Of a stretch of DNA of 4,243 bases, positions 1,397 through 4,139 are shown piece after piece. The DNA comes from Qubevirus faecium. The notes under the pieces were generated by a model. It saw nothing but the letters and a program-made list of their open reading frames with translations, was not told where the DNA came from and searched no databases. The stretch lies in the sequence record FJ539133.1, one strand, 5' to 3'. Position numbers and translations under genes: made by a program. Position 1 is the stretch's first letter; each line of letters begins with the position of its first letter.

Positions 1397-1795
1397 ATGG
1401 CAAAATTGAATAAGGTTACGCTTACCGGTATTGGTAAGGCTGGAGATCAGACTTTAACTCTTACACCGCGTGGGGTAAATCCCACTAACGGCGTGGCGTC
1501 GCTATCTGAAGCTGGAGCTGTTCCGGCGTTGGAGAAGCGAGTAACTGTGTCAGTTGCTCAGCCATCTCGTAACCGTAAGAACTATAAGATCCAGATTAAA
1601 CTCCAGAACCCGACTGCATGCACGAAGGACGCATGCGACCCTTCTGTGACGCGTTCCGCGTTCGCGGACCTAACGCTGTCGTTCACGTCGTATTCTACTG
1701 ACGTTGAACGTGCGCTAGTTCGCACTGAACTGGCAGCTCTGTTGAAGGATGATTTGATTGTCGATGCTATTGACAATCTTAATCCTGCATACTGA
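1397..1795 (+). CDS. cp: Major coat protein
   Basis: 132-aa ORF separated from A2 by an 18-nt intergenic region (TTTTGGGTCAATTCGATC) that resembles the Qbeta coat initiation region. The translation (AKLNKVTLTGIGKAGDQTLTLTPRGVNPTNGVASLSEAGAVPALEKRVTVSV...NPTACTKDACDPSVTR...LNPAY) is Qbeta/SP-like, including the two Cys of the disulfide-forming loop. It ends at TGA 1793-1795. Confidence 0.95.
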   Translation: MAKLNKVTLTGIGKAGDQTLTLTPRGVNPTNGVASLSEAGAVPALEKRVTVSVAQPSRNRKNYKIQIKLQNPTACTKDACDPSVTRSAFADLTLSFTSYSTDVERALVRTELAALLKDDLIVDAIDNLNPAY

Positions 1796-2389
1796 GCAGC
1801 GTTACTGGCAGCCTCGCCGGGTGGCGGGAATAATCCCAACCCTGGCGTCCCGGATAGTCCGAACGTCAAGCCGCCTGGCGGTACAGGCACCTATCGGTGC
1901 CCGTTCGCCTGCTACCGCCGTGGTGAACTCATCACGGAGGCTAAGGACGGAGCTTGTGCGCTTTATGCGCTTGGCAGTGAGGCCATAGTTGAGTTCGATT
2001 ACGCTCTTGAGGATTTCCTCGGGAACGTGTTCTGGCGCAACTGGGACGGTCGCTTATCGACATACGATATCGACACTCACCGTCGTTGTCGCGGTAACGG
2101 GTACGTTGACCTAGACGCAACCATGATGCAGTCAGACGCTTATGTATTGTCTGGCGCTTATGATGTTGTCAAGATGCAACCACCCAGTATCTTCGACTCC
2201 CCTAGGTACTACCTCCATCTAATGGATGGTATCTATGTGGACTTAGCCGAGGTAACGGCATACCATTCTTACGGAATGGTCATTGGCTTCTGGACAGACT
2301 CTAAGAGCCCGCAGCTGCCAACCGACTTTACGCGTTTTAACGGGCGTAACTGCCCCGTACAGACCGTAATCGTCATACCCTCACTTTAA
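1397..2389 (+). CDS. A1: Minor capsid protein A1 (coat read-through protein, about 330 aa)
   Basis: Same frame as coat. No stop between 1796 and 2386, and no ATG/GTG/TTG in the first 77 codons of the extension, so independent initiation is unlikely. The extension begins with a Gly/Pro/Asn-rich linker (SPGGGNNPNPGVPDSPNVKPPGGTG) followed by GTYRCPF...CRGNGYVDLDAT...AYHSYGMVIGFW...CPVQTVIVIP, which parallels the Qbeta A1 extension (PGTGKYTCPF...CRGNGYIDLDAT...AYHADGVIVGFW...CPIQAVIVVP). The total of about 330 aa compares with 329 aa for Qbeta A1. Confidence 0.85.
1793..1795 (+). promoter_or_regulatory. Leaky UGA stop codon of the coat gene (translational read-through site)
   Basis: The coat frame stays open for 197 further codons after TGA, to TAA 2387-2389. 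The local context is TAC TGA GCA. In Qbeta the coat UGA is occasionally read as Trp to make A1. Confidence 0.8.
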
Positions 2390-2397
2390 GCAACTTA

Positions 2398-2403
2398 AAG
2401 GAG
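2398..2403 (+). promoter_or_regulatory. Shine-Dalgarno sequence of the replicase gene
   Basis: AAGGAG lies 5 nt upstream of ATG 2409. Confidence 0.65.
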
Positions 2404-2404
2404 A

Positions 2405-2424
2405 TAGCATGTCTAAGACAGCTA
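2405..2424 (+). promoter_or_regulatory. Replicase translational operator hairpin (coat-protein binding site spanning the replicase start codon)
   Basis: TAGCATGTCTAAGACAGCTA folds as an 8-bp stem (2405-2408 and 2410-2413 paired with 2417-2424), with a bulged A at 2409 (the A of the AUG) and a 3-nt loop UAA (2414-2416). The geometry and sequence match the Qbeta operator AUGCAUGUCUAAGACAGCAU. Confidence 0.7.
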
Positions 2425-4139
2425 GTCACAAGAAGAAAATTACTCAAGCATTGAGTAAGGTCGACATCAACTTTGAAGACGACATCCATATGTCTATTGC
2501 CAATGACCTCTTTGAGGCCTACGGCATTGCACCTCTTGCGTCGGCGGAGCAGTGTATCAGCACTCCGTTCCCTGACACTTCAATGGACGCTGATGCATTT
2601 CGCATCCATTACCTGCGTTCAGAGATCCTTAGCAAGTTCAGTGCGCACCCTCTCGGTATTGATACCGAAGCGGCCGCCTGGGAAAAGTTCCTGGCTGCCG
2701 AGGAGGGTTGTAGACAAACCAACGAACGTCTCACTAAGGTTAAGTACCATGATAATTCCATTTTGTCATGGGGCGAGCGTGTTATTCACACTGCTCGTCG
2801 AAAAATACTTAAACTGATCGGTGAGACTGTCCCGCTGGGGGATGTGGCGTTGCGCGCCCGATTTTCGGGAGGCGCTACGACCTCGGTTAACCGTTTACAC
2901 GGTCACCCGTCGTGGAAGCATGCCTGTCCGCAGGATGTAACCAAACGTGCACTGAAATACCTAATGGCCTATAAAAAGGCCTGTGGTGACGTCGTTGATT
3001 TACGCGTCAATGAGGTGCGCACTTCAAATAAAGCAGTCACTGTTCCAAAGAACAGCAAAACTGATCGTTGCATTGCCATCGAGCCCGGCTGGAATATGTT
3101 TTTCCAGTTAGGCGTAGGTGCTGTGCTCCGCGATAGGTTGCGCCTTTGGCAGATTGATCTTAATGACCAATCTGTTAATCAGCGCCTCGCACGCGATGCG
3201 TCGCAGTTGGACCATTTGGCCACTGTCGACTTATCAGCAGCAAGTGATTCGATAAGCTTACGGCTTGTTGAATTGCTAATGCCGCCTGCTTGGTTTGATC
3301 TCCTGACCGATCTCCGATCGGACCAGGGTGTCCTGCCAGATGGGCGTGTCGTTACTTACGAGAAAATATCCTCCATGGGTAATGGCTACACTTTCGAGCT
3401 GGAGTCGCTAATCTTTGCGGCCCTAGCCAGGAGTGTGTGCGAGTTGTTGGACCTTGACCAGTCAACCGTCAGCGTGTACGGTGATGATATAATCATCGAC
3501 TCACGTGCCGCTGATGTCCTGATGGCGGTTTTTGAGTATGTTGGGTTCACGCCTAACAGAAAGAAGACTTTCATTAAGGGCCCCTTTAGAGAGTCGTGCG
3601 GTAAGCACTGGCACTCCGGGGTTGACGTAACGCCCTTTTACATACGCCGCCCAATCCGTTGCCTAGCCGACATGATACTTGTTTTAAACAGTATATATCG
3701 GTGGGGCACGATTGACGGGGTGTGGGATCCTAGAGTACTGCCTGTGTACCAGAAGTACGTGAAGCTGCTACCAAGAGATTGGCGGCGCAACACTATACCT
3801 GATGGTTACGGTGACGGTGCTCTCGTCGGATTGGCCACGACTAACCCATTCGTTATCGTCCGGAATTATTCCAGATGGTATCCTGTGTTGGTTGAGGTCC
3901 AGAGGGATGCTAAGCGTCACGAGTTTGGCAGTTACTTATATGCCTTGCTGCGTGACCGCGAAGCACGTTACAATCCCTTCCTGCGTACTGCAGATGGGAG
4001 TGGGTTTGATGAAACACCGCTAGCTACTAGCCTTCGTCGCAAGACAGGTCGGTACAAAGTGGCGTGGATTCAGGACAGTGCCTTCATCCGGCCCCCTTAT
4101 TTTATTAAGGGAATTCCCGAGGTGAAGCTTGCGAGCTAG
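2409..4139 (+). CDS. rep: RNA-dependent RNA polymerase (replicase beta subunit)
   Basis: 576-aa ORF, ATG start, TAG stop. Contains the D-x4-D motif A (DLSAASD, 3228..3248) and the catalytic YGDD (3477..3488). The N-terminus MSKTASHKKKITQALSKVDINFEDD and much of the sequence are Qbeta/SP replicase-like; the length equals what I recall for the SP-group replicase. Confidence 0.95.
   Translation: MSKTASHKKKITQALSKVDINFEDDIHMSIANDLFEAYGIAPLASAEQCISTPFPDTSMDADAFRIHYLRSEILSKFSAHPLGIDTEAAAWEKFLAAEEGCRQTNERLTKVKYHDNSILSWGERVIHTARRKILKLIGETVPLGDVALRARFSGGATTSVNRLHGHPSWKHACPQDVTKRALKYLMAYKKACGDVVDLRVNEVRTSNKAVTVPKNSKTDRCIAIEPGWNMFFQLGVGAVLRDRLRLWQIDLNDQSVNQRLARDASQLDHLATVDLSAASDSISLRLVELLMPPAWFDLLTDLRSDQGVLPDGRVVTYEKISSMGNGYTFELESLIFAALARSVCELLDLDQSTVSVYGDDIIIDSRAADVLMAVFEYVGFTPNRKKTFIKGPFRESCGKHWHSGVDVTPFYIRRPIRCLADMILVLNSIYRWGTIDGVWDPRVLPVYQKYVKLLPRDWRRNTIPDGYGDGALVGLATTNPFVIVRNYSRWYPVLVEVQRDAKRHEFGSYLYALLRDREARYNPFLRTADGSGFDETPLATSLRRKTGRYKVAWIQDSAFIRPPYFIKGIPEVKLAS

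What the first reader, a model, noticed from the sequence alone, without database searches (positions are those of the whole stretch)
1793..2389. Programmed UGA read-through producing the A1 minor capsid protein
The coat stop TGA (1793-1795) is followed by 197 in-frame sense codons, and the first 77 contain no ATG/GTG/TTG. The extension begins with a flexible Gly/Pro/Asn-rich linker and then a domain similar to Qbeta A1. In Qbeta this low-level read-through (Trp at UGA) is essential for infectious virions.
Basis: partly seen in the sequence, partly recalled or inferred. Interest (0 to 1): 0.45.

Follow-up and report, generated by a model that had tools for sequence, protein, structure and literature searches.

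The report
Known coat read-through (A1) gene
This is the textbook leaky-stop extension of the coat gene that Qbeta-type RNA phages use to make their minor capsid protein A1. It is real and well conserved here, but it is already known and already annotated in this phage group.

Summary
The window is a complete genome of a genogroup IV Qubevirus (Qubevirus faecium). It is 90.8% identical to phage NL95. Three of its proteins are exact GenBank entries, ACT66753, ACT66754 and ACT66756, so it is almost certainly FJ539133, strain HB-P24.

The coat gene ends at TGA 1793-1795. It is followed by 197 in-frame sense codons, then TAA 2387-2389. The first in-frame start-like codon is codon 78.

The extension matches Pfam PF16814 (Read-through domain, E 1e-39). 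It also matches the solved Qbeta A1 read-through domain 3RLC/3RLK (sequence E 9e-43; fold TM 0.66-0.73).

All 29 related genomes or contigs examined keep UGA, with no in-frame stop wherever sequence is present. Those that reach the end of the extension have 195-199 codons. dN/dS is 0.11-0.26 in frame and about 2 in off-frame controls. It stays at 0.15-0.27 over codons 1-77, which lie ahead of any possible start codon.

Three steps are carried over from Qbeta and not shown for this strain: Trp insertion at UGA, about 5% efficiency, and essentiality.

One small difference: genogroup IV has UGA-G, while Qbeta has UGA-A.

Novelty: already known. Interest: low.

The parts
1397..1795 (+). Major coat protein gene (132 aa), ending in the leaky UGA
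   Evidence: ORF. Pfam PF01819 Levi_coat, E 4e-56. Exact match to GenBank ACT66754.1.
1793..1795 (+). Leaky UGA stop codon. Context is UAC UGA GCA GCG UUA CUG, so the +4 base is G.
   Evidence: UGA is kept in all 29 relatives. It is the only UGA stop among the genes of this genome.
1796..1891 (+). Gly/Pro/Asn-rich linker, extension codons 1-32. This end coordinate is my own cut, not a measured domain boundary.
   Evidence: Composition. Pro and Gly positions are invariant across groups III and IV. dN/dS is 0.12-0.39, based on few substitutions. AlphaFold confidence is low here (pLDDT below 50 for residues 1-29), which fits a non-globular segment.
1841..2380 (+). Read-through domain, extension residues 16-195, homologous to the Qbeta A1 C-terminal domain
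   Evidence: PF16814, E 1.3e-39, residues 16-195. 3RLC, E 9e-43, residues 12-195. Foldseek 3RLC/3RLK, E 5.5e-14, TM 0.66-0.73.
1796..2389 (+). Whole read-through extension: 197 codons plus the UAA terminator
   Evidence: Purifying selection shown.
2387..2398 (+). Strong termination of A1: UAA, then a second in-frame UAA three codons later
   Evidence: Back-up in-frame stops are also present in 13 of the 14 relatives checked. FI has none within 11 codons.

Best explanation
Ribosomes translating the coat cistron normally stop at UGA 1793-1795, where release factor 2 acts. In a small fraction of passages a near-cognate tRNA decodes UGA instead. By analogy with Qbeta this is tRNA-Trp. Translation then continues in the same frame for 197 codons to UAA 2387-2389. 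The product is a 330-aa, roughly 36 kDa protein: the coat domain, a Gly/Pro-rich linker and a C-terminal read-through domain. This is the A1 minor capsid protein. By analogy with Qbeta, a few copies replace coat subunits in the capsid and are needed for infectivity. Shown here: the anatomy, homology to the solved Qbeta A1 domain, conservation of UGA and of the open frame, and purifying selection in that frame, including the part ahead of any start codon. Inferred from Qbeta: which amino acid is inserted, the read-through frequency (about 5%), incorporation into virions and essentiality.
For: The anatomy is exact. The genome is a Qubevirus faecium, 90.8% identical to NL95 over 100% of its length, and NL95's record annotates the same A1 CDS. 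The window's maturation, coat and replicase proteins are exact GenBank entries on a 4243-nt record. The extension matches PF16814, 3RLC/3RLK and the 3RLC fold. All 29 relatives keep UGA and an uninterrupted frame, and length differences are whole codons. dN/dS is 0.11-0.26 in frame against 1.8-2.8 in the two other frames, with substitutions concentrated at third positions. For codons 1-77 alone dN/dS is 0.15-0.27. None of the eight in-frame start-like codons has a purine-rich Shine-Dalgarno-like run in the 20 nt printed upstream of it (my reading). The mechanism in Qbeta is described in the literature: PMC6526423 and PMC6071253 for Trp at UGA and about 5% read-through, PMC13114773 for the infectivity requirement, and PMC5289835 for UGA misreading by tRNA-Trp in E. 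coli.
Against: Nothing here contradicts it. The limits are these. No protein-level data exist for this strain. The +4 base is G in all genogroup IV genomes, whereas Qbeta-like genomes have A, the context reported as especially prone to Trp misreading in E. coli (PMC5289835). Efficiency, and strictly the inserted residue, may therefore differ from Qbeta. The AlphaFold model is only moderate (mean pLDDT 62), so the fold match adds little beyond the sequence match.
Confidence: 0.97

Rival explanations
1. The extension is a separate gene translated from its own internal start, not a read-through product.
For: Automatic gene callers on assembled contigs call it as a separate ORF. They start at TTG (extension codon 4) in HB-P22-like genomes, or further in for NL95-like ones.
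Against: This genome and the NL95 clade have no ATG/GTG/TTG in the first 77 codons. Those 77 codons are nevertheless under purifying selection, dN/dS 0.15-0.27, and contain residues invariant across groups III and IV. The TTG at codon 4 is not conserved. I saw no Shine-Dalgarno-like run ahead of any in-frame start-like codon (my reading). The frame is always continuous with the coat gene in 29 genomes, despite indels.
Confidence: 0.02
2. The UGA is recoded as selenocysteine through a SECIS hairpin directly downstream.
For: UGA is the Sec codon, and predicted RNA structure surrounds it.
Against: No Rfam family, including the bacterial SECIS models, matches anywhere in the window at E up to 1. 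The bases right after UGA are predicted to pair with bases upstream of it, not to form a downstream hairpin. In Qbeta the residue is reported to be Trp (PMC6526423).
Confidence: 0.005
3. The open frame is kept only because the RNA must fold, with no protein made from it.
For: The region is strongly structured. 1775-1900 folds with z = -2.85, and conserved hairpins show compensatory changes.
Against: RNA-only constraint does not predict a third-position bias in substitutions, dN/dS of 0.1-0.2 in one frame only, or a 40%-identical match to a crystallised protein domain.
Confidence: 0.005

Closest known systems
A1 (read-through) protein of phage NL95, GenBank AF059243 / AAC14704.1, Qubevirus faecium genogroup IV
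   Same: Same gene order. The 9 nt before and 15 nt after the UGA are identical. Same 197-codon length and the same UAA GCA ACU UAA ending. The extension is 92% identical in amino acids and 93% in nucleotides.
   Different: 15 amino-acid differences in the extension, all ordinary strain variation.
Qbeta A1 protein, read-through domain, PDB 3RLC/3RLK, Pfam PF16814
   Same: UGA at the end of the coat gene. In-frame extension of about 195 codons. Gly/Pro-rich linker followed by a homologous globular domain. Position between the coat and replicase genes. 58 invariant alignment columns across groups III and IV.
   Different: Only about 42% amino-acid identity. The +4 base is G here and A in Qbeta. 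There is a 3-residue insertion (YDI) and two 1-residue deletions relative to Qbeta. The terminator is UAA with a back-up UAA three codons later, against tandem UAG UAA in Qbeta.
Read-through proteins of SP, FI, BR1, BR8 and HB-P22 (other genogroup IV phages)
   Same: Same UGA-G context and same architecture.
   Different: The extension is only 66-70% identical in amino acids, while the coat is 88-94% and the replicase 84-90%. The read-through module of the NL95/window clade is an outlier within genogroup IV.

Membership tests
Qubevirus A1 read-through minor capsid protein | Coat cistron ends in a single UGA codon | tested here: met
   TGA at 1793-1795. It is the only UGA-terminated gene in the genome.
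Qubevirus A1 read-through minor capsid protein | In-frame extension of about 195-200 sense codons, ending just upstream of the replicase gene | tested here: met
   197 codons, with UAA at 2387-2389. The replicase AUG is at 2409.
Qubevirus A1 read-through minor capsid protein | Extension belongs to Pfam PF16814 (Read-through domain) | tested here: met
   136.3 bits against a gathering cut-off of 27. Covers 181 of 182 profile positions.
Qubevirus A1 read-through minor capsid protein | Homology and fold match to the solved Qbeta A1 domain | tested here: met
   phmmer E 9.2e-43 to 3RLC. Foldseek E 5.5e-14, TM 0.66-0.73, and no other significant PDB match. The model itself has mean pLDDT of only 62.
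Qubevirus A1 read-through minor capsid protein | Qubevirus genome organisation: maturation, coat, read-through, replicase | tested here: met
   Pfam hits for all four products. Full-length nucleotide match to NL95, SP and FI. I did not run a dedicated search for a separate lysis gene.
Qubevirus A1 read-through minor capsid protein | Stop codon and open frame conserved in relatives, with purifying selection in the coat frame | tested here: met
   29 of 29 relatives. dN/dS 0.11-0.26 in frame against about 2 off frame.
Qubevirus A1 read-through minor capsid protein | A fusion protein of about 36 kDa is made at a few percent of coat level, with Trp at the UGA position, and is built into virions | not testable with these tools
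   Known for Qbeta only (PMC6526423, PMC6071253). Predicted mass here is 35.9 kDa.
Qubevirus A1 read-through minor capsid protein | Required for infectivity | not testable with these tools
   Reported for Qbeta (Hofstetter et al. 1974, as cited in PMC13114773). Strong purifying selection here is consistent with it but does not prove it.
Bacterial selenocysteine recoding | SECIS hairpin immediately 3' of the UGA | tested here: not met
   No Rfam match at E up to 1. The bases just 3' of UGA are predicted to pair upstream.
Programmed ribosomal frameshifting | Downstream ORF lies in the -1 or +1 frame relative to the upstream gene | tested here: not met
   The extension is in the zero frame. The off-frame ORF 1758-1988 is broken by stops in every relative.

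The most novel reading that the evidence does not exclude
Two readings are not excluded. First, genogroup IV phages may set their read-through level differently from Qbeta. They have a conserved UGA-G context instead of UGA-A, the UGA sits in the loop of a small conserved hairpin (1780-1804), and a very stable branched hairpin starts about 20 nt downstream (1814-1884). Second, the read-through domain of the NL95/window clade may have been exchanged by recombination. It is only 70% identical in nucleotides to every other genogroup IV phage. HB-P22, the nearest relative outside that clade in the replicase gene, carries an SP-like domain. That would point to the domain being a swappable module, perhaps involved in host interaction.
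Probability: 0.15. Interest if true: 0.3.

Novelty: already known. Interest (0 to 1): 0.08.

Why it matters
It matters little as a discovery. UGA read-through producing A1 is a classic example of translational recoding (Weiner and Weber 1971) and a defining trait of the genus Qubevirus. It is already annotated in NL95, and almost certainly in this very genome's GenBank record. There is practical value: automatic gene callers mis-annotate the extension as a separate ORF. Recognising the read-through gives the correct protein. What the A1 domain does is still unknown (PMC13114773). The unusual divergence of this module within genogroup IV may therefore be a modest lead.

Tried and rejected
- **Rfam:** a scan of the whole window at E up to 1 found nothing, so there is no SECIS or other curated RNA family.
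- **Direct look-up of FJ539133** failed because the record is not in the tool's phage collection. Identity rests on exact protein matches and the accession order.
- **Exact look-up of the 330-aa A1 with Trp at position 133** found nothing in the protein collection. I did not try other placeholder residues.
- **Exact look-up of contigs encoding the replicase** found none on record.
- **Two papers** could not be read because they are not held: Rumnieks and Tars 2011, and the PMC id I guessed for Friedman et al. 2009.
- **IMG/VR scan** with the extension alignment added only FI, SP and two Qbeta-like contigs.
- **Qbeta RT4-R22 kissing loop** (PMC8880383): I looked for its counterpart. The hairpins are there, but I saw no consistent loop-loop complementarity in genogroup IV. 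This was a by-eye comparison, not a systematic search.
- **+1-frame ORF 1758-1988 (76 aa):** rejected as chance, since stops break it in all relatives.
- **Downstream hairpin as a read-through stimulator:** considered and not adopted. It starts about 20 nt after the UGA. From my own knowledge, known stimulators sit closer, so this is not a tested result.

Full report
**What the window is.** The 4243-nt window starts GGGG and ends CCCA. It carries three long + strand ORFs plus one long stop-to-stop open run directly after the coat gene. The products match Pfam families as follows:
- Phage_mat-A for 53-1378
- Levi_coat for 1397-1795
- Read-through (PF16814) for 1796-2386
- RNA_replicase_B for 2409-4139

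Megablast against phage records aligns the whole window. Identity is 90.8% to NL95 (AF059243), 83.8% to FI strain HB-P22, about 80% to SP and 78% to FI. All of these are Qubevirus faecium, genogroup IV.

An exact-sequence look-up shows that three of the window's proteins are GenBank entries on a 4243-nt NCBI record. They are ACT66753.1 (maturation), ACT66754.1 (coat) and ACT66756.1 (replicase). These numbers fall between those of HB-P22 (FJ539132, ACT66749-52) and BR1 (FJ539134, ACT66757-60). The window is therefore almost certainly FJ539133. I infer that this is strain HB-P24, one of the listed genogroup IV isolates (PMC6963950). The missing ACT66755 would be its annotated read-through protein. 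That record is not in the tool's collection, so this step is inference.

**Checking the observation.** Every number in the finding holds.
- TGA lies at 1793-1795, followed by 197 sense codons, then TAA at 2387-2389.
- The first in-frame ATG/GTG/TTG is GTG at 2027, which is codon 78.
- From base composition, the chance of 197 open codons is about 1.3e-4. Only 2 of 10,000 shuffles of the segment stayed open.
- It is the third-longest stop-to-stop run in the genome, after the replicase and maturation genes.
- The first 32 residues hold 7 Pro, 7 Gly and 4 Asn. Coat + Trp + extension is 330 aa and 35.9 kDa.

**What it is.** The extension matches PF16814 at 136 bits, against a cut-off of 27. It matches the crystallised Qbeta A1 read-through domain (3RLC/3RLK) at E 9e-43 over residues 12-195. 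An AlphaFold model built from a 13-sequence alignment is only moderate, with mean pLDDT 62 and pTM 0.62. Even so, a search of the PDB returned only 3RLC and 3RLK as significant matches, at E 5.5e-14 and TM 0.66-0.73. [quoted passage not shown] SP, FI, HB-P22, BR1, BR8, Qbeta and MX1 carry the same annotation.

**Tests that could have refuted it.** I examined four sets of relatives:
- 10 GenBank Qubevirus genomes
- 13 HB-P22-like contigs from public sequencing runs
- 4 NL95-like contigs
- 2 Qbeta-like metagenome contigs

All 29 have UGA at the end of the coat gene, and none has an in-frame stop wherever sequence is present. The 21 that reach the end of the extension have 195-199 codons. The other eight contigs end inside it. 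Length differences are whole codons.

Nei-Gojobori dN/dS for the extension against the window is as follows:

| Comparison | dN/dS |
|---|---|
| NL95-like contigs, in frame | 0.11-0.13 |
| NL95, in frame | 0.21 |
| Other genogroup IV phages, in frame | 0.16-0.26 |
| Same nucleotides read in the two other frames | 1.8-2.8 |

Of 41-46 substitutions, 31-35 fall at third codon positions. These values resemble those of the maturation gene (0.13-0.24). They are somewhat higher than for coat (0.09-0.17) and replicase (0.05-0.11).

Codons 1-77, which precede any possible start codon in this clade, give dN/dS of 0.15-0.27. They also contain residues invariant across groups III and IV. This part is therefore translated, and the only way in is through the UGA.

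**Mechanism.**
- *Shown:* the anatomy, homology, conservation and selection described above.
- *Taken from the Qbeta literature:* the UGA is occasionally decoded as Trp, in about 5% of passages. A few A1 copies enter the capsid and are needed for infectivity, and their precise role is unknown (PMC6526423, PMC6071253, PMC13114773).
- *General background:* UGA is the leakiest stop in E. coli and is misread by tRNA-Trp, especially when followed by A (PMC5289835).

The window and every genogroup IV genome have UGA-G, in the context UAC UGA GCR GCG UUA YUG. Every Qbeta-like genome has UGA-A. Read-through frequency in genogroup IV may therefore differ from Qbeta, and this has not been measured here.

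Termination at the far end is robust. UAA is followed by another in-frame UAA three codons later. No other gene in the genome ends in UGA.

**Rivals.**
- *Independent initiation:* suggested only by automatic gene calls on contigs. It is contradicted by the lack of start codons and by selection on codons 1-77.
- *Selenocysteine:* no SECIS-like match in Rfam.
- *RNA-only constraint:* cannot explain the frame-specific selection or the protein homology.
- *Frameshifting:* irrelevant, because the frame is unchanged. The +1-frame ORF 1758-1988 is broken by stops in all relatives.

**Seen along the way.**
- *Divergent module.* The read-through module is the most divergent part of the genome between the NL95/window clade and the other genogroup IV phages. 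Nucleotide identity is 65-71% there, against 80-90% in the flanks. The relationships are also incongruent. HB-P22 is closest to the window and NL95 in the replicase gene (0.85-0.88). In the extension it is closest to SP and BR1 (0.82-0.83) and only 0.70 to the window. This suggests recombination.
- *Structured RNA.* Region 1775-1900 folds with z = -2.85.
  - UGA lies in the 7-nt loop of a small predicted hairpin.
  - The linker-coding RNA forms a stable branched hairpin. Its outer stem pairs Gly codons with Pro codons, and the same arrangement is predicted in Qbeta and MX1.
  - A hairpin at 1915-1940 is kept across genogroup IV by two adjacent compensatory pairs that also change the encoded amino acids.

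**Verdict.** The feature is a textbook one and already annotated, so novelty is 'already known' and interest is low.

Noticed in passing
window 1800-2350, compared with L001-L007: The read-through module is a divergence hot spot and is phylogenetically incongruent. The window and NL95 are only 0.70 identical to all other genogroup IV phages here, against 0.8-0.9 in the flanks. HB-P22 is nearest to the window in the replicase gene (0.87-0.88) but carries an SP/BR1-like extension (0.82-0.83). Synonymous divergence is raised too (dS 1.0-1.45). This suggests recombination or exchange of the module.
   Followed up: partly
window 1915-1940: An RNA hairpin (CCGUGGUG / CAUCACGG) lies inside the read-through ORF and is conserved across genogroup IV. 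Two adjacent compensatory pairs (U-A, C-G to G-C, U-A) also change the protein, from L..E to R..T. 88% of cells are paired, against 36-70% in the slid controls. It sits at about the same place in the protein alignment as the Qbeta RT4 kissing-loop hairpin (PMC8880383), though the Qbeta stem is a few nucleotides out of register. By eye I saw no consistent complementarity to the R22-like loop (UUAC, about 2895-2898).
   Followed up: partly
window 1780-1804: The leaky UGA sits in the 7-nt loop (AUACUGA) of a small predicted hairpin. The hairpin is conserved in genogroup IV through G-U-compatible changes only and is not clearly present in Qbeta or MX1. Its significance is unknown.
   Followed up: partly
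window 1814-1884: A stable branched hairpin lies in the linker-coding RNA. Its outer stem pairs the Gly codons (GGUGGCGG) with the Pro codons (CCGCCUGG). An equivalent structure is predicted in Qbeta and MX1, and 2-3 pairs show compensatory changes. The Gly/Pro-rich linker composition and the RNA fold may constrain each other.
   Followed up: partly
window 1793-1798 and the equivalent site in L001-L032: The base after the leaky stop divides cleanly by genogroup. It is UGA-G in all 25 genogroup IV sequences and UGA-A in all four Qbeta-like ones.
   Followed up: yes
L011-L028 (assembled contigs from public sequencing runs): Automatic gene callers split A1 into a coat gene plus a separate 'Read-through' ORF. 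That ORF starts at TTG (extension codon 4) in HB-P22-like genomes, or at internal codons giving 111-133 aa in NL95-like ones. This is a systematic mis-annotation of read-through genes.
   Followed up: yes
window 1758-1988, + strand, +1 frame: A 76-aa ORF with a TTG start overlaps the coat/extension junction. It is broken by stops in every relative, so it is a chance ORF.
   Followed up: yes
window 2405-2423: By eye, the replicase start AUG (2409) lies in a short hairpin, GCAUGUC-UAA-GACAGC, with a bulged A. It resembles the Qbeta-type coat-protein operator as I recall it. I did not test this with any tool.
   Followed up: no
L024 about 2341: One NL95-like contig has GUG where the other genomes have the replicase AUG start (agcGUGucuaa).
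   Followed up: no
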